Shown one piece after another: positions 1-20,449 of a DNA stretch of 20,449 nucleotides. Location of the stretch: UHGV virus genome UHGV-0200630. The stretch is one strand, 5' to 3'. The number at the start of each line of letters is the position of its first letter. Position 1 is the stretch's first letter. Below the pieces are notes generated by a model that saw only the letters and a program-made list of their open reading frames with translations, did not search any database and was not told the origin of the DNA. The translations under genes were made by a program, and so were the position numbers. The stretch comes from a virus.

Positions 1-78
1 TGGTTTGGCGATTGATCAGATCGCACAATCCGGGCTGAGTTCCCTTTCAGTGATCTACTATTCCGCGCAGCTATTTAG
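1..78. repeat. Left terminal inverted repeat (78 bp), exact reverse complement of 20371-20448
   Basis: Read directly: reverse complement of 20371-20448 equals 1-78 base for base; identity breaks at position 79. Contains three GATC sites (14-17, 19-22, 52-55) and begins 5'-TG. Confidence 0.95.
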
Positions 79-1266: not shown

Positions 1267-1463
1267 TAGTTCACTCCTGACATCAGAAGCGTCCCAAATG
1301 TTTTTATCTGTTCTTCGCTGATAAGAATCATTTTAGGTGCTTTAATATCGAAAGCTTGCAGAACAGGAACAGCAACAGTGTTATAAGTTATAGTAACGAG
1401 AAATAGAACAATAAGATAATCTTTAGCGTGTTTTGCCAATGCTTGGAGATATTTCATTTTCAT
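1266..1463 (-). CDS. Small single-pass membrane protein (65 aa), possible lysis-associated (holin-like) protein
   Basis: ATG at 1463-1461 with AGGTGA SD; one hydrophobic helix (DYLIVLFLVTITYNTVAVPVL); overlaps the 3' end of the endonuclease VII gene by 41 nt. Real coding status uncertain. Confidence 0.4.
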   Translation of the reverse strand: MKMKYLQALAKHAKDYLIVLFLVTITYNTVAVPVLQAFDIKAPKMILISEEQIKTFGTLLMSGVN

Positions 1464-1899
1464 ATTTCACCTTTATTTGGTTTGAGTAGACTTTTTCAAG
1501 CTCCTTTTTCGTTTTAAGGTTTGAACCTGTAATAGCTTTCATCTCAGAAAGATTTTTTCGAGAGAACGCCTTCTTTAAATCAGGAATAAGTTGTGGATGC
1601 GTAGGATTGTCTGAGTAGTCTTTTTCAAGATACTGAACAAGATTCTTCAAAAACTCGATGTAGTCAATTTTCCCATCGAGACCCGAACGTTTAAACTGAT
1701 GTTTTATTCTGCCCTCTAGGACGTTTGCTTGAGCGATTAATAATCCTCTGCATCTGCCTGCGTTAGAGCCTGTTAATATATGGTCATGGTCAAGATGGGC
1801 TTTATTAACTTCATGAATCTTTATGCCAGTTAAAGCACAAAGACCTTTTTGCTTTTGAAAGAGTTCTTGCTTATAAATCGGAATCTCTTTTCTTTTCAT
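1423..1899 (-). CDS. Endonuclease VII-like Holliday junction / branched-DNA resolvase (T4 gp49 family), 158 aa
   Basis: Translation contains HLDHDH, GLL..N..EG, KHQFKRSGL.GK.DY.EFL.NL..YL..DY and FSR...SEM, matching T4 endonuclease VII as I recall it. ATGA overlap with upstream gene; AAGAGGA SD. Confidence 0.85.
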   Translation of the reverse strand: MKRKEIPIYKQELFQKQKGLCALTGIKIHEVNKAHLDHDHILTGSNAGRCRGLLIAQANVLEGRIKHQFKRSGLDGKIDYIEFLKNLVQYLEKDYSDNPTHPQLIPDLKKAFSRKNLSEMKAITGSNLKTKKELEKVYSNQIKVKYENEISPSIGKTR

Positions 1900-2180
1900 T
1901 TTCCTCTTAGAACTGCTAGGTCGATATCTAGCTTTGCTGTTCTTCCTTCTAAATTCTTCAAATCAGATTTGACCTCTCGAAATTCATCCTGTTGTCGTGT
2001 TATATCGCTTATAAGCGAAGCATCTTTTGCGTCATTAACGGCTATGCTTTTTTCGATGTCTGAGAAACGTTTCTCAAGGTCAATTCGTTTTTCATTGTTT
2101 GATTTAATTTCGGCATAAACCCAAGCCAAGAAACCTCCTAGAGCACCCAAGATGGAAATGATCAGTGCTATATCGACCAT
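1896..2180 (-). CDS. Membrane-anchored coiled-coil protein (94 aa), candidate i-spanin-like or other lysis/envelope protein
   Basis: N-terminal TM segment (IALIISILGALGGFLAWVYA) followed by charged, heptad-like region; ATG at 2180 with AAGGAGA SD (6-nt spacer). Confidence 0.6.
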   Translation of the reverse strand: MVDIALIISILGALGGFLAWVYAEIKSNNEKRIDLEKRFSDIEKSIAVNDAKDASLISDITRQQDEFREVKSDLKNLEGRTAKLDIDLAVLRGK

Positions 2181-2225: not shown

Positions 2226-5200
2226 TTATTGTTGTTTACTGATAAAGTAAACTGCTCTTGCTGCGGTCGCATGATTCAAGTCAGCACCGTAACTCAAATC
2301 AACAGCTTGTCCCGCATAGATAATGCCTGTACCACCGTTTGAACCACTCATTGCACTGGTAACTGTTCTTACGATTTCTTGACCGTTCGACATATTAATC
2401 CATGCAGTTCCGTAGCCCCAAGCACCACCGGAATAAGTTCTGCCTGAAATCGAAAGGTTTGGAATAGAAATTACTCTGTTCCAGTTAACAGCAGGAATAT
2501 GAACTGTTGTCCACGGATCTATATGACCCATTTTGATAACGTCACCTTCAATTCTGTCAGCGTATACAGTTCCTGTGAAATAACCTGAACCGCCTCTGAT
2601 TTCACCTGCGAAATAACCAGAATCTGCTTGAATGTTACCTCTGATATTAACGTTTTGGAAAGAAGCCCAACCGTCTTTTCTGATTGTCCAACCTTGAGTA
2701 CCACCGGAAGGGAACCAGTTATCAGAAGATATTTCATAAGCAATCTGTGCTGAACCGATCTGAGCATTACCAATTTTCGCAGTAGTAATCGCACCGTTTT
2801 CAATCTTCGCGTTGTTAATAGCACCGTTTTGAATCTTAGCGTTGTTAATAGAAGCATCTGCAATCTGTGCTGAACCGATAGAAGCATTACGAATCATTGC
2901 AGAATCCATATAAACTCTGTTATCAGCGACCATAAACGGAGCAACAGCACCCGCAGGAGTATTGTTATTCGTTATAGCGATTTTATCAGCGTTAAAAACA
3001 ATACTAGACTGTTTTGAACCGTCAGGATTCTTATTAGCCAGCATACTGATACCAGCAACAACACCGTCGGCATTAGTCTGAACTGCCCATTTGCTATTAA
3101 TCGTTCCTGTTAAGTCGTCAACGCTTGCTTTTGATTCTTGACTAACTGTTGCAATAGCTGTGTTTGTTTCAGCTTTCAATTGATTAATTGAACTTGCGGT
3201 TGCTTGTCTATCATCAGCTTGAGTTTTTTCAACTTTCGTAATAGCCGAGTTAAGTTTTCCATCAAAGTTAGATTCTTGAATACTGATAGCCTGATTGATA
3301 GCGCCATTAGTTTCATTAGTAATCTGAGTATGAAGTTCGGTGTTTTTCGTCGTGATAGTCTGATTTAATTCAGTAGTAACTTTTTGCTCGGATGCTGTAA
3401 CTTTCGTATCAGTGTATTTGTTAGCGAGGTCTAATGCTTCATCGATAGCACCATCAACACGTTTATCCAAATCAAGCAAATCGTTTAACTGTTCTTTCAT
3501 ATCGTCAGTCCACGGAATATCCCATTTCATATCGATAAACTTCGATTCTGACCAAGTAATCTGGTCTTGTCCGAATACGTCATACCAAGCTGAACGAACA
3601 TAGAATTGACCATCTTCTAATGGAAAATTATCTAAGAACGGACTTGAACTTGAATAAACGTGAACAATTTCATTAAAACTCTGGTCTTTCGCAATATGAA
3701 CGATTGTGCCTTTGAAGTCAGGAACTTCAGGCTTATTATCGCGTGGGTCATTCCAAGAGCACATCAGCATTCCAGGACCATTCGAAGCTGTGAAACCTTG
3801 AATAGCAGGAGCTTGATTGTTCTTAACAGTAATAACAGCAGGATCTGACTTCATACCAGCGTGACCGTATGCAGTAACAGAAACTTTCAATTCACGACTC
3901 AGACCATTACCCAAGTTCATATTAAAGTCATATACAAAACCTAAGTCTTTAGTCTTGTAAATTACAGGACGCTGACCTTCAATTTTGATTTCGTAATATT
4001 GAAAAACTTCACCGAATGTCTGTAACGTGTCGTCAACATAGAATTTCTGTGCGCTCTGGTCGTCCCAGGCGAATTCAAATTGAGTCTTGTTAGTGGTGTA
4101 TTGATTTTCAACTGCGTTCACTAGGTGCAGTCCTGTAACGACTGGTAAGTTATACATAACCTCAGGGTTAACGTTATTGACATAAACCCAATCTGAACGA
4201 TACACAACACCAGAAGCACAAACACGAATATCAAATTTCTGATTAGGGTCAAGACTCATAATCAAGAAATAATCGCCTGATGTGAAACCTGCTTGAATCC
4301 AAGAGTTCTTACCAGCAAGACTATACTGAATATAATAACCTGCGCGATTATAATCAGGTTCAGACGTCCATTGAACTTTCAGAGTTCTTCCTAAAGCTGT
4401 TTCAGCAACTGCTTTAACTGTCAGATTCTTAGGAGCAATCAGAACAGATTTATTAGGAATGTTGCTTCCTGTGTTATCAGGGTCTTTCGCGTAGTCAAGA
4501 TTGGTATAAACTTCTTCGATATATTCAGAAGCAGTAATAGTAACGATACCAGCAGCACCTTTATTCATCGAACGATCGATATTAGTAATACGCCATAATG
4601 AATTCACAAGTTCCAGTTCAGAGAAATTAACTCTGATAACATCCCAGACCTGTGCGGTATAAGCATCAGCAGTTGAAAAACTAATAACTTGCTTTAACAG
4701 AGATTTGTTACGTTCGATTGAAGCAATTTTATCCAACTGAGATTTTGATTTCACGAATCTGTAACTGATATCTTTAGCGATAATACGTTTATCTTTCGCG
4801 ATTGTTCCATCATTTGTTACGTCAGACGGATAACGCAGAACTTGGTCAGAATAGTCAATCGACGGATCTTGATATTTCACGTTCAGAGTATTGTAATAAT
4901 TCTCAGAACCGCCATCGTTTAAGCTAACAGTACCAGCGTTAATATTATCTTCGTTGAAGTCATATTGAACAACATCAGGTCCATCGATTCTGCATGTTAC
5001 TTTACCGAAAGTCTCTGTGATAATACCGTTAAATGCACCTGCAAGCTGAGTTAAGTTTTCTTTGAATGAACCGTTCGGGTCAGTTGCACCATCAGAAAAT
5101 AAACTGTTCAGTTTTGCATATCGAGCAGCTTCTTTAAAACTATCAAGGTCGATTTTATCAATCTGAATTCCAAGACCGTATCTATCATTTGTTAGATAAT

Positions 5201-5915
5201 CAACAATCTGACTCGGACCGTTGTTCGAGGAAACGCGTTCTCCTGTGTTCAGATCTGTAATCAAACGTCCTCTAACGTCAACAGATACTTGACTGTTAGG
5301 TTGCAGGATATCAGCTTGGTTTTGAAGGTCTGAGTTACGTTTGCGCATAACAACACAACAAGCAGCGATGTTATTACCAGTAGCAGAATCAGGCCAGCCA
5401 GCATCTGAATTTCCTAGATATTTCTGAGCAAGAGTAAAAACGTGACCGTATGGCTTACCAGTTGAGAATTCAACTTCAACATATTGCTGATATTCAGCAG
5501 CGATTGAACCTTTCGGAAGAACACCGTCTTTATAAACGCCATCAAGTAAGATTTTCTGATTATCCATATAAAGGTTTTTGAAGCTATCAACTTCACCTTC
5601 ACAGATTGCAAAGATCTGAACCAAATATGTCGTATCAACGCCAACAGCTTTCCAAACGTTAATCGTACCTGTACGCTGTTCACCATAGATAATAGGAATA
5701 ACACTTGATGGATCTGACGTTGTTCCTAATGTCGTTGCTGTGTCTGTGCTGTTAAATCGGGGAACGTTCTGCGCCATCTGAGTTGACATCAAAGCAGAAA
5801 CAGCAGCAACAGCGACACCAATACCAATTGCCAAAGCAAGAGCAGCACCCGCAGCGTAAGCAGCAGCAGCCGCGGAAGCACCTGCGATAATTGCACCAAT
5901 AGCTACAATAGCCAT
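2226..5915 (-). CDS. Tail tip / host specificity protein, lambda gpJ-like (1229 aa) with atypical hydrophobic N-terminus
   Basis: Strong SD AGGAGA (6-nt spacer). Middle and C-terminal regions (e.g. FMVADNRVYMDSAMIRN..., GTVYADRIEGDVIK) resemble lambda J as I recall it, including fibronectin-III-like stretches. Residues 1-45 are an Ala/Gly/Ile-rich hydrophobic segment. Confidence 0.85.
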   Translation of the reverse strand: MAIVAIGAIIAGASAAAAAYAAGAALALAIGIGVAVAAVSALMSTQMAQNVPRFNSTDTATTLGTTSDPSSVIPIIYGEQRTGTINVWKAVGVDTTYLVQIFAICEGEVDSFKNLYMDNQKILLDGVYKDGVLPKGSIAAEYQQYVEVEFSTGKPYGHVFTLAQKYLGNSDAGWPDSATGNNIAACCVVMRKRNSDLQNQADILQPNSQVSVDVRGRLITDLNTGERVSSNNGPSQIVDYLTNDRYGLGIQIDKIDLDSFKEAARYAKLNSLFSDGATDPNGSFKENLTQLAGAFNGIITETFGKVTCRIDGPDVVQYDFNEDNINAGTVSLNDGGSENYYNTLNVKYQDPSIDYSDQVLRYPSDVTNDGTIAKDKRIIAKDISYRFVKSKSQLDKIASIERNKSLLKQVISFSTADAYTAQVWDVIRVNFSELELVNSLWRITNIDRSMNKGAAGIVTITASEYIEEVYTNLDYAKDPDNTGSNIPNKSVLIAPKNLTVKAVAETALGRTLKVQWTSEPDYNRAGYYIQYSLAGKNSWIQAGFTSGDYFLIMSLDPNQKFDIRVCASGVVYRSDWVYVNNVNPEVMYNLPVVTGLHLVNAVENQYTTNKTQFEFAWDDQSAQKFYVDDTLQTFGEVFQYYEIKIEGQRPVIYKTKDLGFVYDFNMNLGNGLSRELKVSVTAYGHAGMKSDPAVITVKNNQAPAIQGFTASNGPGMLMCSWNDPRDNKPEVPDFKGTIVHIAKDQSFNEIVHVYSSSSPFLDNFPLEDGQFYVRSAWYDVFGQDQITWSESKFIDMKWDIPWTDDMKEQLNDLLDLDKRVDGAIDEALDLANKYTDTKVTASEQKVTTELNQTITTKNTELHTQITNETNGAINQAISIQESNFDGKLNSAITKVEKTQADDRQATASSINQLKAETNTAIATVSQESKASVDDLTGTINSKWAVQTNADGVVAGISMLANKNPDGSKQSSIVFNADKIAITNNNTPAGAVAPFMVADNRVYMDSAMIRNASIGSAQIADASINNAKIQNGAINNAKIENGAITTAKIGNAQIGSAQIAYEISSDNWFPSGGTQGWTIRKDGWASFQNVNIRGNIQADSGYFAGEIRGGSGYFTGTVYADRIEGDVIKMGHIDPWTTVHIPAVNWNRVISIPNLSISGRTYSGGAWGYGTAWINMSNGQEIVRTVTSAMSGSNGGTGIIYAGQAVDLSYGADLNHATAARAVYFISKQQ

Positions 5916-6331
5916 TATTTTCTCCTGTTAAAAATTAATTCAAAATTAAAATCGTTGACGTTTATCAGTTGATATTTATTTTCATGTTCAACTAATGCTC
6001 TATTATTAAAAACGATAGATGCAACGTAATAGACACGGTTTTTATGTTTTTTCTTAATTAAGATAACCGAGCCTGTTTCTATAGTTTCTGATTTCTCAAG
6101 ATGCGTTTCACACGCTTCGAGAACGTTATTAAAACCAGTTAGCTCTTTGCAAATCTTGAGACCTTCAGGAATACTCGTGTATTTGTCTTTTAATTTGTCT
6201 GTGTATTCAGTAGCACAAACAAGGTCGATATATTCAGCAACAAGGATATTACAGTCGTTTTGACCGAAAACGTGTTGCTGATTGATATAGCGGTTAAGTA
6301 ATTTTGATAAGTCAGCTTGAAATTTAAACAT
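5915..6331 (-). CDS. Putative tail tip assembly protein with lambda gpK-like NlpC/P60 cysteine peptidase domain (138 aa)
   Basis: Immediately upstream of the J-like gene with TAATG coupling; GAGGTG SD. Motif FGQNDCNILVAEY resembles the Cys-containing motif of NlpC/P60 (lambda K C-terminal domain); later HxN/His candidates. Functional call is tentative. Confidence 0.55.
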   Translation of the reverse strand: MFKFQADLSKLLNRYINQQHVFGQNDCNILVAEYIDLVCATEYTDKLKDKYTSIPEGLKICKELTGFNNVLEACETHLEKSETIETGSVILIKKKHKNRVYYVASIVFNNRALVEHENKYQLINVNDFNFELIFNRRK

Positions 6332-6388: not shown

Positions 6389-6865
6389 TTAATCACTTGA
6401 TGTCAAATCAACAACACCAGAAACAACAGGACCACCATCAACACTCAGTGTCATTGTCAGACCTTGAACTTCTGATTCACCGCCATTATGAACAGCGCTT
6501 GACAAGAAGCCGTTATAAACTTTTGCAACACCCAGTTTTTTAGTAGCATCAATCCAATAAACGATTTTAAACTGACCACGTTTACCATCTTCCGCAAGCT
6601 TAATCAGAACATCATGAACGCTTTCTGGAATATAGTTAACGGTCAAGTCGATATCAGGAACAGAGCCACGACCAACCAGTTTACGGGAGTATTTGTGAGA
6701 GAAGTTAGGAGCTGTAATAACTTCGCGTTCAATACCCGTAGAAGGGAATGCACCAGTTTCAGGAATTTCAACAAACTTTTCTGAATTCAGATCGGTGTTT
6801 GCAATTTCTGAGTTATAGAACACACTGACGTAAGAGCCAGCAAAAATATCAAATTTGTCTGCCAT
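6389..6865 (-). CDS. Putative abundant virion structural protein (158 aa), possibly tail tube/distal tail-like
   Basis: Isolated between two hairpins (6904-6926 and 6363-6386), suggesting separate high expression; AGGAAA SD. Gly/Val/Ser-rich sequence that I read as beta-rich. Family not recognised from sequence alone. Confidence 0.6.
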   Translation of the reverse strand: MADKFDIFAGSYVSVFYNSEIANTDLNSEKFVEIPETGAFPSTGIEREVITAPNFSHKYSRKLVGRGSVPDIDLTVNYIPESVHDVLIKLAEDGKRGQFKIVYWIDATKKLGVAKVYNGFLSSAVHNGGESEVQGLTMTLSVDGGPVVSGVVDLTSSD

Positions 6866-10022: not shown

Positions 10023-11048
10023 TTAAAATACTCCTGCGTCTAAGGTTTCTCCTAACGCTACACAATTAATCTCTAATGGCGTTGGTTTATTACTTGGAGA
10101 ATAGACTTCTTTGCCTTTGACCTTGACAGAAGTTGAGTTAATTTCATTACTATTTAGAGCCAAGATTTCACCTTGTGGCGCAGAAATCTTTTTACGAACG
10201 TTCAGATATTCCTGAATAGTCAAAGATCCTTTGAGTTCTCCACCAGTAATAGGCAAAGCATTAATATCTTCAGGAGTTGGACGTTCAAGTTCTGTATAGA
10301 CTTTGACCCACGGAGATTCAGTAACAGTTTCACCGCTTTGTTGTTTGTTTCTGATTCTGATGCTTGGATTACCGACTGACGAACCAATAAGCTCCCAACC
10401 TTGACCATCAGGATGCTGAATAGCCATAGCAGACGTGCCAGAGTTATAAGGGTTATCGCTGTTTGTTGCATCGACTGTTACACATCTGTTACCAGTTAAT
10501 AATCCTAAGTCTTTAACGCCTGCGATTTCTTCTGTACCAGCACCAATACCATAATCGCCAACGTTTAACGGAACTGAGAATTCAGCAAAACCTGTAAACA
10601 ACTGACCATCAGGAGAAAGATTAAAAGTTGTTGTAACGACTGAGTTAGCCGAACCTGATGTTTCTTTCTTCGTTACATAAGCATTAAAAATATGATAAAG
10701 ACCAGCATCATTATCTTTCTTTGTTTCTCCATCGATAACATAAAGACTTCTGAATCTAAGGAGTTTCTTTTCCATAAGAGCTTCATCAAGCAACTGATAA
10801 ACTGGGTCAGAACTGTCTTCAAATAAGCTTATTGAAGTGTCGTTAATTGTTACGTCACCTGAAAGTTTCGTTGTGAAATCGGTTCTGTAATCTTCTAGTG
10901 TCTGAACTTCTTTTCTAAATCCGATAACAGGGAATGCAGCCAGTTTATCAGTGCTTACATAACCTGGGTCGTTATATCCTGGGATTTCAACGATTAGCGG
11001 ATTAACTGAAACTCTGACGTTATTTCCTACAAAAATATCGTTTGTCAT
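10023..11048 (-). CDS. Virion structural protein (341 aa), possibly major tail or fiber-associated protein
   Basis: Long ORF in the structural block, 7 nt downstream of the preceding stop. N-terminal half has a pattern reminiscent of major tail proteins; C-terminal part (PTPEDINALPITGGELKGSLTI) resembles fiber attachment regions. Family unresolved. Confidence 0.65.
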   Translation of the reverse strand: MTNDIFVGNNVRVSVNPLIVEIPGYNDPGYVSTDKLAAFPVIGFRKEVQTLEDYRTDFTTKLSGDVTINDTSISLFEDSSDPVYQLLDEALMEKKLLRFRSLYVIDGETKKDNDAGLYHIFNAYVTKKETSGSANSVVTTTFNLSPDGQLFTGFAEFSVPLNVGDYGIGAGTEEIAGVKDLGLLTGNRCVTVDATNSDNPYNSGTSAMAIQHPDGQGWELIGSSVGNPSIRIRNKQQSGETVTESPWVKVYTELERPTPEDINALPITGGELKGSLTIQEYLNVRKKISAPQGEILALNSNEINSTSVKVKGKEVYSPSNKPTPLEINCVALGETLDAGVF

Positions 11049-11777: not shown

Positions 11778-11803
11778 GAAAAAAGGACTCCCGAAGGAGT
11801 CCT
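11778..11803 (-). terminator. Strong intrinsic terminator after the capsid gene(s)
   Basis: 8-bp stem AGGACTCC (11784-11791) / GGAGTCCT (11796-11803) with 4-nt loop, followed on the minus strand by U6 (11778-11783). Confidence 0.8.
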
Positions 11804-11823
11804 CTGATTATTCAGCAGTTTCA

Positions 11824-11854: not shown

Positions 11855-12067
11855 TTAGGCTTGTTTTTCGTGCAGGAACAGACGATCATCAGCACAAACT
11901 TTCCAATCGATATCAGCCCAAACGCGAGGAACGATAGCGCCTTTGTTACGGTAAGTTGTGTCGTCTAGGTCAAGAGCAAGACCTTCCCACTCAGCTACGG
12001 TTACAGCAGAGAAGTCACCAGAGATAACCTGACCTTCTTTAACAAGACCGGAACCGATAAACATCAT
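11855..12067 (-). CDS. Small capsid-associated ORF (70 aa) overlapping the capsid gene 3' end in the +1 frame; separate protein or frameshift extension
   Basis: ATGATG at 12067-12062 lies 29 nt inside the capsid ORF in the +1 frame; only a weak GGGCGGA SD. Shares the terminator at 11778-11803 with the capsid gene. Confidence 0.45.
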   Translation of the reverse strand: MMFIGSGLVKEGQVISGDFSAVTVAEWEGLALDLDDTTYRNKGAIVPRVWADIDWKVCADDRLFLHEKQA

Positions 12068-19937: not shown

Positions 19938-20391
19938 ATTGAATTTCAAATTTGCAGTCTTCGAAAATCTAGACAGAACAGTTAAAGCAAGCCTGAACAG
20001 AAATATTATCAAAGTTAATAGAATGACCAATAACAAAAACAGCCTGAAAGCTCTTGTTAAAGCTATAGATATTCATCGTAATGTTCGAGCTAAGATGTTA
20101 CAGAAGATTGAAAATGCTGTGACTGTAAAAAATATGCATAGCTTCGAAATCGGTACGACCGAAGTTAATAATCTGCCTGCAATCGTTGCTTATACAACCG
20201 ATAATGCTGTTATCGTTGCTTGTGAAATTAACGGTAAAAAGAACTCGTGGAAAGCTTTCTGTTCAGATCTAAGAATGCAGAAGATCAAAGACACCGAGCA
20301 GTTTGTTCAGATGTATACTGGTGAATTTATTGAAATCATCGAAAGTATTGAATTTCCGACTGAGCAGAGACTAAATAGCTGCGCGGAATAG
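19885..20391 (+). CDS. Hypothetical protein (up to 168 aa; start ambiguous: ATG 19885, TTG 19939 or ATG 20023)
   Basis: Long ORF in the +1 frame relative to the 52-aa HTH ORF, overlapping it. None of the candidate starts has a strong SD. Stop codon TAG at 20389-20391 lies inside the right ITR. Family not recognised. Confidence 0.45.
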   Translation: MLAKNVISELNQSIKANKLNFKFAVFENLDRTVKASLNRNIIKVNRMTNNKNSLKALVKAIDIHRNVRAKMLQKIENAVTVKNMHSFEIGTTEVNNLPAIVAYTTDNAVIVACEINGKKNSWKAFCSDLRMQKIKDTEQFVQMYTGEFIEIIESIEFPTEQRLNSCAE

Positions 20392-20448
20392 TAGATCACT
20401 GAAAGGGAACTCAGCCCGGATTGTGCGATCTGATCAATCGCCAAACCA
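20371..20448. repeat. Right terminal inverted repeat (78 bp), reverse complement of 1-78
   Basis: Read directly; one extra base (a, 20449) beyond the repeat at the right end. Confidence 0.95.
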
Positions 20449-20449
20449 A

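What the first reader, a model, noticed from the sequence alone, without database searches (positions are those of the whole stretch)
5780..5915. J-like tail tip protein starts with a 45-residue Ala/Gly-rich hydrophobic segment
The first ~45 residues (MAIVAIGAIIAGASAAAAAYAAGAALALAIGIGVAVAAVSALM) look like one or two transmembrane helices or a fusion-peptide-like segment, which is atypical for lambda J-type proteins. No tape-measure protein is encoded, so this segment could be a membrane-inserting element for genome delivery, or a remnant of a fused upstream tail gene.
Basis: partly seen in the sequence, partly recalled or inferred. Interest (0 to 1): 0.6.

Follow-up and report, generated by a model that had tools for sequence, protein, structure and literature searches.

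The report
Built-in membrane-insertion plug of tail tip
The greasy first 43 residues of this prophage tail-tip protein are real and conserved, but they are the usual channel-closing, membrane-inserting module of such proteins (a separate protein, gpI, in phage lambda), so the finding is ordinary.

Summary
The 1229-aa gene (2226-5915, minus strand) starts at the ATG at 5915 and opens with 43 uncharged Ala/Gly/Ile/Val residues. This segment is conserved and under purifying selection.

It is not atypical. Profile searches align residues ~6-96 with the C-terminal half of lambda gpI: hydrophobic helices H1/H2, the plug, and the "LPVLYGE.RVG" strand. Residues 72-125 align with T5 hub protein pb3 directly after its plug. 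Of 145 full-length representatives of this J-like superfamily, 112 begin with the same kind of hydrophobic segment. [quoted passage not shown]

The statement that no tape measure is encoded is a window artefact. The window is a contig cut at two ISEc33 copies. In E. coli MS 115-1 an 799-aa tape measure gene lies about 0.4 kb beyond its left end, and the distal tail and hub genes lie at the far end of the ~34-kb island.

Most likely mechanism (inferred, not shown): three copies line and close the tail-tip lumen, are released on receptor binding, and insert into the outer membrane.

Verdict: a new member of a known kind, of low interest.

The parts
2226..5915 (-). Gene for the 1229-aa tail-tip / central-fibre protein. 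It is a fusion of a gpI-C-like module with a J-like protein.
   Evidence: ORF and translation. phrog_31 'central tail fiber J' E 5.7e-61. Pfam Phage_Tail_Tip E 2.2e-23. Foldseek on the model of residues 1-470 returns T5 pb3, lambda gpJ and RcGTA g15.
5922..5926 (-). Shine-Dalgarno AGGAG, 6 nt upstream of the ATG.
   Evidence: Read from the sequence.
5856..5915 (-). Residues 1-20, first hydrophobic stretch (counterpart of gpI H1).
   Evidence: Hydropathy, and a simple insertion-energy sum of about +0.6 kcal/mol for window 1-19. The boundary with the second stretch is approximate.
5787..5852 (-). Residues 22-43, second and more hydrophobic stretch (counterpart of gpI H2). This is the part kept in all family members, including those with a single helix.
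   Evidence: KD19 maximum of 2.42 centred on residue 34. Insertion-energy sum of about -0.8 kcal/mol for windows starting at residues 24-25. Alignment A5.
5703..5786 (-). Residues 44-71, polar linker (MSTQMAQNVPRFNSTDTATTLGTTSDPSS). It aligns with the gpI plug region and the loop that follows it.
   Evidence: hhalign of A2 against the gpI family: probability 95.8%, E 7e-9, query 49-95 = gpI 159-212. BLASTP E 6e-5.
5643..5702 (-). Residues 72-91, strand motif VIPIIYGEQRTGTINVWKAV. It matches gpI 'VLPVLYGEMRVGSRVV' and T5 pb3 'FIPVVYGVQKIPGIPIF'.
   Evidence: hmmsearch of profiles A2 and A5 against PDB sequences. G78 is invariant and Y77 nearly invariant in 37 diverse members.
5541..5642 (-). 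Residues 92-125, start of the hub-domain body (..LVQIFAICEGEVDSFKNLYMDN..). It runs on continuously from the strand, as in T5 pb3 283-316.
   Evidence: T5 pb3 263-316 aligned to profile positions 72-125, E 1.7e-5 and 1.2e-8.
2853..3140 (-). Residues 926-1021, Phage_Tail_Tip (PF09327) domain of the central fibre.
   Evidence: Pfam E 2.2e-23.
5915..6331 (-). Upstream gene, 138 aa, DUF6950. Its stop overlaps the start of the tail-tip gene. It occupies the position of lambda K and RcGTA g14.
   Evidence: Pfam DUF6950 E 1.6e-10. phrog_2134. Any relation to NlpC/P60 is not shown: a PDB sequence search found nothing.
6389..6865 (-). Major tail (tube) protein, 158 aa. It shows that the tail is a long non-contractile one.
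   Evidence: phrog_158 'major tail protein' E 5.3e-16.

Best explanation
Residues 1-~95 are the cis-fused counterpart of the C-terminal half of lambda gpI. They comprise two marginally hydrophobic helices, a short polar plug/linker, and a strand that joins the hub-domain sheets of the J-like body. This equals the 'iris/penetration domain' at the N-terminus of the RcGTA and R4C megatron proteins, and it sits where T5 pb3 has its plug.

Proposed mechanism:
1. In the assembled tail, three copies lie inside the conical tip.
2. There they close the channel and hold the C-terminal end of the tape measure protein.
3. Receptor binding by the distal fibre opens the hub domains and frees the segment.
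4. The six helices drop onto the outer membrane and insert into it. This anchors the open tube and helps form the first pore, through which the tape measure protein and DNA follow.

What is shown here: the segment exists, it is translated and conserved, the adjacent region is homologous to gpI-C and pb3, and this architecture is the rule in the superfamily. What is inferred from published structures of relatives: its location in the lumen, its gating role and its membrane insertion.
For: Homology:
- A profile of the N-terminal 150 residues hits lambda gpI 119-212 (E 6e-5 to 2e-4) and T5 pb3 263-316 (E 1.7e-5) among 177,635 PDB sequences.
- A broader 37-sequence profile hits pb3 at 1.2e-8, a second 'tail assembly protein' (25vf_9) at 1.5e-3, and gpI at 2e-3.
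- hhalign against a gpI family alignment gives probability 95.8%, E 7e-9.
- gpI has two hydrophobic stretches in the same relative place.

Gene order: a protein in the K position (DUF6950) followed by the fused I-J gene.

Generality: 112 of 145 full-length representatives start with a hydrophobic segment followed by a polar linker and the 'IPVxYG' strand.

Constraint: 15 synonymous against 5 conservative changes in codons 1-45.

Tail type: a tape measure protein, a weak tail-assembly-chaperone match, distal tail protein, hub and tube protein are all present in the island.

Published structures:
- gpI H1/H2 are predicted transmembrane, the plug (159-175) closes the lumen, and both are released towards the membrane after LamB binding (PMC11101478; also PMC10721106, PMC12617516).
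- RcGTA g15 residues 1-46 and R4C megatron residues 1-45 form an iris that blocks the channel and are predicted to insert into the outer membrane (PMC7296036, PMC10276861).
- The T5 pb3 plug refolds and anchors in the membrane (10.1101/2022.09.20.507954).
Against: - The hydrophobic stretch itself is of low complexity. It contributes little to the alignments, and the significant matches rest on residues ~49-125.
- The match to RcGTA g15 by sequence is not significant (E 0.12).
- The AlphaFold2 model is poor (mean pLDDT 52; residues 1-71 about 22, with no secondary structure), so nothing structural is shown for the segment.
- Membrane insertion by gpI or megatron N-termini is itself a proposal in the cited papers, not a demonstrated fact.
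- This copy sits in a decaying prophage. The window has a frameshift in the capsid gene and IS insertions at its ends, and MS 115-1 has an IS3 in the terminase gene. Function in this strain is therefore doubtful.
Confidence: 0.72

Rival explanations
1. Mis-called start. Translation really begins at Met43 or Met47, and the Ala/Gly-rich stretch is untranslated leader that happens to be open.
For: In-frame ATGs exist at codons 43 and 47.
Against: The only Shine-Dalgarno sequence precedes the ATG at 5915, which also overlaps the upstream stop codon. The segment is conserved as protein in homologues down to 32% identity and in distant superfamily members. Changes in codons 1-45 are mostly synonymous (15 against 5).
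Confidence: 0.02
2. Sec signal peptide or N-terminal inner-membrane anchor. The protein is exported, or is assembled on the producer cell's inner membrane.
For: It is an N-terminal hydrophobic stretch, and the insertion-energy sum for residues 24-43 is slightly negative.
Against: There is no positively charged n-region: the first K/R is at residue 53. The hydrophobic run is 43 residues, far longer than a signal-peptide core. Homologous segments lie in the lumen of cytoplasmically assembled tails in lambda, RcGTA and R4C (PMC10721106, PMC7296036, PMC10276861). No dedicated predictor (SignalP, DeepTMHMM) was available here.
Confidence: 0.05
3. The segment is only a structural gate or assembly element. 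It plugs the channel and docks the C-terminus of the tape measure protein but never enters a membrane. The tape measure protein alone forms the channel.
For: The plug and tape-measure-docking roles of gpI are seen directly in structures, whereas membrane insertion is only proposed (PMC10721106, PMC12617516). The island's tape measure protein has its own Gly/Ala-rich hydrophobic stretches.
Against: Strong conservation of hydrophobicity, rather than of sequence, across 112 diverse members fits a lipid-facing role better than a specific protein contact. In the lambda open state H1/H2 leave the lumen towards the membrane (PMC11101478).
Confidence: 0.18
4. Compositionally biased, functionless low-complexity linker left over from a gene fusion.
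For: Iyer et al. [quoted passage not shown] AlphaFold2 gives it no structure.
Against: Here it is at the very N-terminus, so it links nothing. It is retained in most of the superfamily and is under purifying selection.
Confidence: 0.03

Closest known systems
Megatron proteins of the Rhodobacter capsulatus gene transfer agent (g15, PDB 6TBA/6TEH) and roseophage R4C (gp16): N-terminal 'iris/penetration domain'
   Same: - A hydrophobic segment of about 45 residues sits at the very N-terminus of the J-like hub/fibre protein.
- The hub attachment-domain protein is separate (PF09931 here).
- A small gene lies immediately upstream, in the position of the g14 peptidase.
- Foldseek links the body of the protein to 6tba_8A (E 2.6e-5).
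- The described role is to gate the channel and then insert into the outer membrane (PMC7296036, PMC10276861).
   Different: - Sequence similarity of the N-terminal region is not significant (E 0.12).
- The hub protein here is short (215 aa) with a single Cys, so it lacks the Fe-S domain.
- The distal part is a lambda/T1-like central fibre (PF09327) rather than a fibre-binding domain.
- The host is an enterobacterium.
Lambda gpI (tail tip assembly / 'insertion' protein; PDB 8IYK, 8K35, 8XCG, 9E7M), C-terminal half
   Same: The order of elements is the same: two hydrophobic helices, a plug/linker, then the 'LPVLYGE.RVG' strand. The sequence match is significant. The gene position is also the same, between the K-position gene and J.
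   Different: gpI is a separate 223-aa protein with an N-terminal ubiquitin-like domain (PF06805, residues 14-97). That domain is absent here. The JAB domain of lambda K, proposed to process it (PMC1779556), was also not detected in the upstream gene.
T5 baseplate hub protein pb3 (PDB 7ZHJ, 7ZQP)
   Same: It is the best sequence and fold match for residues 72-470. The strand 'FIPVVYG' follows the plug directly in one chain, as here, and FNIII domains follow the hub domains.
   Different: pb3 also contains hub domain I in the same chain, whereas here it is a separate protein. Its plug is an internal insertion that refolds into a beta-hairpin with a short LFGL tip, not a 43-residue N-terminal hydrophobic stretch. 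In T5 the long hydrophobic segment proposed to form the channel is in the tape measure protein pb2 (10.1101/2022.09.20.507954).
TAPI-TAPJ fusions noted by Iyer, Burroughs and Aravind 2006
   Same: Fusion of the gene I product to the gene J product in prophages had already been recorded (PMC1779556).
   Different: As described, those fusions include the ubiquitin-like domain. This protein has only the part downstream of it.

Membership tests
Lambda gpI / TAPI family | N-terminal ubiquitin-like beta-grasp domain (Pfam PF06805) | tested here: not met
   No PF06805 hit at E <= 10 on residues 1-160 or on any of the 19 island proteins scanned against Pfam. The protein starts directly with the hydrophobic segment.
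Lambda gpI / TAPI family | C-terminal module: hydrophobic helices H1/H2, plug, and the strand 'LPVLYGE.RVG' | tested here: met
   hmmsearch gives gpI 119-212 at E 6e-5 to 2e-4. hhalign gives probability 95.8%, E 7e-9. Hydropathy shows two stretches in both proteins.
Lambda gpI / TAPI family | Separate polypeptide encoded between K and J | tested here: not met
   There is one continuous ORF of 1229 aa. The same holds in all close homologues.
Megatron-type iris/penetration domain (RcGTA g15, R4C gp16) | Hydrophobic segment of about 45 residues at the extreme N-terminus of the J-like hub/fibre protein | tested here: met
   Residues 1-43, with the first charge at residue 53. Domain limits of 1-46 and 1-45 are given in PMC7296036 and PMC10276861.
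Megatron-type iris/penetration domain (RcGTA g15, R4C gp16) | Detectable sequence homology of the N-terminal region to g15 | tested here: inconclusive
   6tba_8A residues 5-141 align to profile positions 5-124 but at E 0.12. The fold match of the body is E 2.6e-5, on a low-confidence model.
Megatron-type iris/penetration domain (RcGTA g15, R4C gp16) | Three N-terminal helices form an iris that closes the tail channel | not testable with these tools
   This needs a trimer model in the context of hub and tape measure protein, or cryo-EM. The monomer AlphaFold2 model gives pLDDT of about 22 for residues 1-71.
J / pb3-type baseplate hub and central fibre proteins | Hub domains II-IV followed by FNIII domains and a tail-tip fibre domain | tested here: met
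   phrog_31 E 5.7e-61. PF09327 E 2.2e-23 and a sub-threshold PF13550 hit. Foldseek top hits are T5 pb3, DT57C, Chi, JBD30, lambda gpJ, T1 and RcGTA. Homologues carry PF00041.
J / pb3-type baseplate hub and central fibre proteins | Partner tail genes of a long non-contractile tail (tube, tape measure, distal tail protein, hub domain I) | tested here: met
   Tube: phrog_158. Tape measure: phrog_13674, E 3.8e-70. Distal tail protein: phrog_1302. Hub: phrog_2048 and PF09931. The last three lie outside the window in E. coli MS 115-1.
Sec signal peptide | Basic n-region, 7-15-residue hydrophobic core, and a cleavage site | tested here: not met
   There is no K/R before residue 53, and the hydrophobic run is 43 residues. 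No dedicated predictor was available.

The most novel reading that the evidence does not exclude
In this enterobacterial lineage the membrane-insertion module works with no ubiquitin-like domain and no JAB peptidase, and with a free N-terminus. If so, the Ubl/JAB step of lambda tail assembly is dispensable. The six N-terminal helices of the trimer could then be an autonomous, fusion-peptide-like outer-membrane pore former, testable with a 45-residue peptide. A more remote reading is that the segment tethers tail-tip assembly to the producer cell's inner membrane.
Probability: 0.1. Interest if true: 0.45.

Novelty: new member of a known kind. Interest (0 to 1): 0.2.

Why it matters
The practical value is for annotation. 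No Pfam model covers this module, because PF06805 stops at gpI residue 97. N-terminal hydrophobic stretches on J-like proteins therefore look odd, or look like start-codon errors.

The survey here shows they are the normal state of the superfamily. Lambda gpI, the T5 pb3 plug and the megatron iris/penetration domain are the same functional position, packaged in three different ways.

It also shows that "no tape measure in the window" cannot be read as "no tape measure in the phage". How siphophage tips breach the outer membrane is still only modelled, and this protein adds one more example, not a new route to an answer.

Tried and rejected
- **Pfam on the N-terminus.** A scan of residues 1-160 at E <= 10 gave only noise, because no model covers gpI-C.
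- **AlphaFold2 on residues 1-470.** A 13-sequence alignment gave a poor model (pLDDT 52). It was used only for a coarse Foldseek check and says nothing about the segment itself. Hits from the exhaustive search could not be added to deepen the alignment.
- **Short-tailed phage without a tape measure.** I first considered this. It was rejected once the island context was read.
- **A T4-like phage with a swapped virion module.** I considered this because the best phage hit, DCP80, is filed under Tevenvirinae. The record has duplicated primase genes, a 165-aa terminase fragment next to a tail sheath gene, and T4 gp23 as well. It looks like a mosaic or mis-joined assembly, so nothing was built on it.
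- **The retron-Ec67 element.** From memory I suspected the island was the classical 34-kb retron-Ec67 element. The literature places Ec67 in a 186-related prophage (PMC6868368), so I dropped this.
- **DUF6950 as an NlpC/P60 relative.** It gave no PDB sequence hit. Its equivalence to lambda K or RcGTA g14 rests on gene position only.
- **Lambda gpJ N-terminus.** It was not recovered by either N-terminal profile. Continuity from the strand into the hub body therefore rests on T5 pb3.

Full report
**1. The observation**

The feature lies at the 5' end of a minus-strand gene, 2226-5915, that encodes 1229 residues.
- There is no charged residue before R53.
- Ala+Gly make up 58% of the segment, against 16% in the rest of the protein.
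- It is the only region whose 19-residue Kyte-Doolittle mean exceeds 1.6.
- The 43-residue mean hydropathy of 2.10 at position 1 was reached in 1 of 20,000 shuffles. The 52-residue uncharged run was reached in 11 of 5,000 shuffles.
- A simple insertion-energy sum shows two shallow minima, about +0.6 kcal/mol for residues 1-19 and about -0.8 for residues 24-43. That is the profile of two marginal membrane helices.

The start codon is sound. An AGGAG lies at 5922-5926, 6 nt before the ATG, and the ATG overlaps the stop of the upstream gene (TAATG).

The segment is conserved in the closest phage homologue (Escherichia phage DCP80, 44.6% identity) and in chromosomal homologues from E. coli, Salmonella, Klebsiella, Citrobacter and Enterobacter, down to 32-34% identity. 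Against an 85%-identical copy of the island, codons 1-45 carry 15 synonymous-only changes and 5 conservative replacements.

**2. Where the window comes from, and the missing tape measure**

Window positions 76-20376 are essentially identical (99.97-99.99%) to a segment of the E. coli MS 115-1 chromosome. The first and last ~78 bases are inverted copies of the ends of the IS630-family element ISEc33. The window is therefore a contig that breaks at two IS copies.

In MS 115-1 the segment is part of an island of about 34 kb between ldtB and ybiT, with a serine recombinase at one end. The island holds the other tail genes.
- About 0.4 kb beyond the window's left end lie a 104-aa gene and an 799-aa tape measure gene (phrog_13674, E 3.8e-70).
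- They are preceded by a 102-aa protein with a weak, sub-threshold match to a tail assembly chaperone (PF16459, E 0.0011).
- At the far end of the island lie a distal tail protein (phrog_1302, E 2.5e-22) and a hub attachment-domain protein (phrog_2048; PF09931, E 6.6e-7).
- Inside the window, the 158-aa protein at 6389-6865 is a major tail protein (phrog_158).

The element thus encodes a complete long non-contractile tail. "No tape-measure protein is encoded" is an artefact of the window.

**3. What the segment is**

Pfam finds nothing in the N-terminus. Its lambda gpI model, PF06805, covers only the ubiquitin-like domain, residues 14-97.

Lambda gpI residues ~100-212 have the same order of elements as the query: two hydrophobic Gly/Ala-rich stretches, a polar stretch, then "VLPVLYGEMRVGS". 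The evidence for homology is as follows.
- BLASTP aligns query 50-84 with gpI 160-200 (E 6e-5).
- A 7-sequence profile of the first 150 residues, searched against all PDB sequences, finds gpI 119-212 (E 6e-5 to 2e-4) and T5 pb3 263-316 (E 1.7e-5).
- A 37-sequence profile of diverse members finds pb3 (1.2e-8), another phage "tail assembly protein" (1.5e-3), gpI (2e-3) and, below significance, RcGTA g15 residues 5-141 (0.12).
- Profile-profile comparison with a gpI family alignment gives 95.8% probability, E 7e-9, for query 49-95 against gpI 159-212. That stretch is the gpI plug and the strands that follow it.
- In T5 pb3 the matching strand "FIPVVYG" runs straight on into the hub-domain body, as it does here.
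- The model of residues 1-470 is of low confidence. Even so, it retrieves only tail-tip hub proteins: T5, DT57C, Chi, JBD30, lambda, Sf11, RcGTA and T1.

The protein is therefore the C-terminal half of a gpI-like protein joined to a J-like protein. It has no ubiquitin-like domain. Its upstream neighbour (DUF6950) sits in the K position, and no JAB domain was detected in it.

**4. How common this is**

An exhaustive HMMER search with the first ~480 residues found 6,790 representatives at E <= 0.001. Among the best 150, 145 are full-length, and 112 of those begin with a hydrophobic window within the first ~40 residues. This is normally followed by 20-35 polar residues and the "IPVxYG" strand. 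In 95 of the 112 it is the only such stretch apart from anything else within the first 150 residues.

Some members have one helix and others two. The shared one aligns with query residues ~24-43. A minority start directly at the strand, as a protein with a separate gpI would. The fused form is therefore the common form, and lambda is the exception.

**5. Mechanism, from published structures of relatives**

- **Lambda.** A gpI trimer sits in the tip lumen and supports the C-terminal coiled coil of the tape measure protein. It threads its strands into the gpJ hub domains by beta-sheet augmentation (PMC10721106). After LamB binding the plug (159-175) disengages. The predicted transmembrane helices H1 and H2 leave the lumen towards the outer membrane, where they are proposed to insert (PMC11101478; also PMC12617516).
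- **RcGTA and roseophage R4C.** The N-terminal 45-46 residues of the megatron protein are named the iris/penetration domain. They close the channel and are predicted to form a pore-lining helix in the outer membrane (PMC7296036, PMC10276861).
- **T5.** The pb3 plug occupies the same place and refolds into membrane-anchoring hairpins, while the hydrophobic part of the tape measure protein is proposed to form the channel (10.1101/2022.09.20.507954).

By homology and position, the segment here most likely does the same: it closes the channel, docks the tape measure protein, is released on receptor binding, and inserts into the outer membrane. These steps are inferred, not shown. Insertion is a proposal even for the model systems.

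**6. Comparison and novelty**

The nearest described arrangement is that of RcGTA and R4C: a separate hub protein, a small gene upstream, and a megatron-like protein with an N-terminal penetration domain. There are three differences here. The hub protein is short and has one Cys, so it has no Fe-S domain. The distal part is a lambda/T1-type tip fibre (PF09327). The host is enterobacterial.

Fusion of the I and J products in prophages was recorded in 2006 (PMC1779556). The finding is a new member of a known kind. It has modest annotation value, because no Pfam model covers the module.

**7. Caveats**

- The hydrophobic stretch itself is compositionally biased and adds little to the alignment scores.
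- No dedicated transmembrane or signal-peptide predictor was available.
- No trimer model could be made.
- This copy lies in a decaying prophage. The window has a 1-nt insertion at 12059 that frameshifts the protease-capsid gene, and it is flanked by ISEc33 copies. MS 115-1 has an IS3 in the terminase gene.

Noticed in passing
window 1-78 and 20372-20449: The two ends of the window are reverse complements of each other and match the termini of the IS630-family element ISEc33. The window is therefore a draft contig that breaks at two IS copies inserted into the prophage island.
   Followed up: yes
L003:6152-9250 (left of the window) and L004:32548-33758 (far end of the island): The tail module is split and in an unusual order. 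The weak chaperone match, the 104-aa gene and the tape measure gene follow the J-like gene. The distal tail protein and hub genes sit about 25 kb away, next to the serine recombinase, on the opposite strand.
   Followed up: partly
window 12059; L003:25753-26873: A 1-nt insertion relative to E. coli MS 115-1 splits the 634-aa protease-major capsid fusion into ORFs of 573 and 70 aa. MS 115-1 instead has an IS3 inside the large terminase gene. Both copies look defective.
   Followed up: yes
window 11782-11805 (minus strand): There is an intrinsic terminator with a UUCG loop (GGACTCC-TTCG-GGAGTCC followed by a T run) between the capsid gene and the next gene. About 45 nt here are 92-93% identical to the soc/capsid region of T4-like phages.
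   Followed up: partly
L001 and L007 (Escherichia phage DCP80, PQ671644.1): This is the closest phage record. It is filed as a T4-like Gaprivervirus and carries the homologous virion module next to motA and ndd. It also carries T4 gp23, a tail sheath gene, a 165-aa terminase fragment and two DNA primase genes, so it looks like a mosaic or mis-joined assembly. Its DUF6950 homologue upstream of the J-like gene is not annotated.
   Followed up: partly
window 10023-11048 and 6389-6865: There are two paralogous major-tail-protein-like genes. The 341-aa one has a tube-like N-terminal half and a fibre-like C-terminal half. A 1027-aa fibre gene with a Peptidase_S74 chaperone domain lies between them.
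   Followed up: no
homologues P0010-P0069 (E. coli, 1258 aa): Many E. coli homologues, about 52% identical in the N-terminal part, carry the lambda gpJ C-terminal receptor-binding domain (PF12421). The window protein and the Salmonella versions do not. This suggests that the receptor-binding end is swapped on a conserved hub.
   Followed up: no
L003:31219-35522: In MS 115-1 the island carries a retron Ec67-family reverse transcriptase/endonuclease and a TIR-domain protein, placed between the packaging genes and the lysozyme gene. The 85%-identical island in strain L3Cip3 has different cargo at the retron position.
   Followed up: no
L004:32548-33195: The hub (gpL/g13-like) protein is only 215 aa and has a single cysteine. 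It therefore lacks the four-Cys iron-sulfur domain reported as conserved across gpL homologues.
   Followed up: partly
window 1423-2180: Directly downstream of the tail-tip gene lie two genes. One encodes a 94-aa protein with an N-terminal hydrophobic helix and a coiled coil (phrog_1009, function unknown). The other encodes a T4 gp49-like endonuclease VII that includes a weak match to the T4 dimerisation domain.
   Followed up: no
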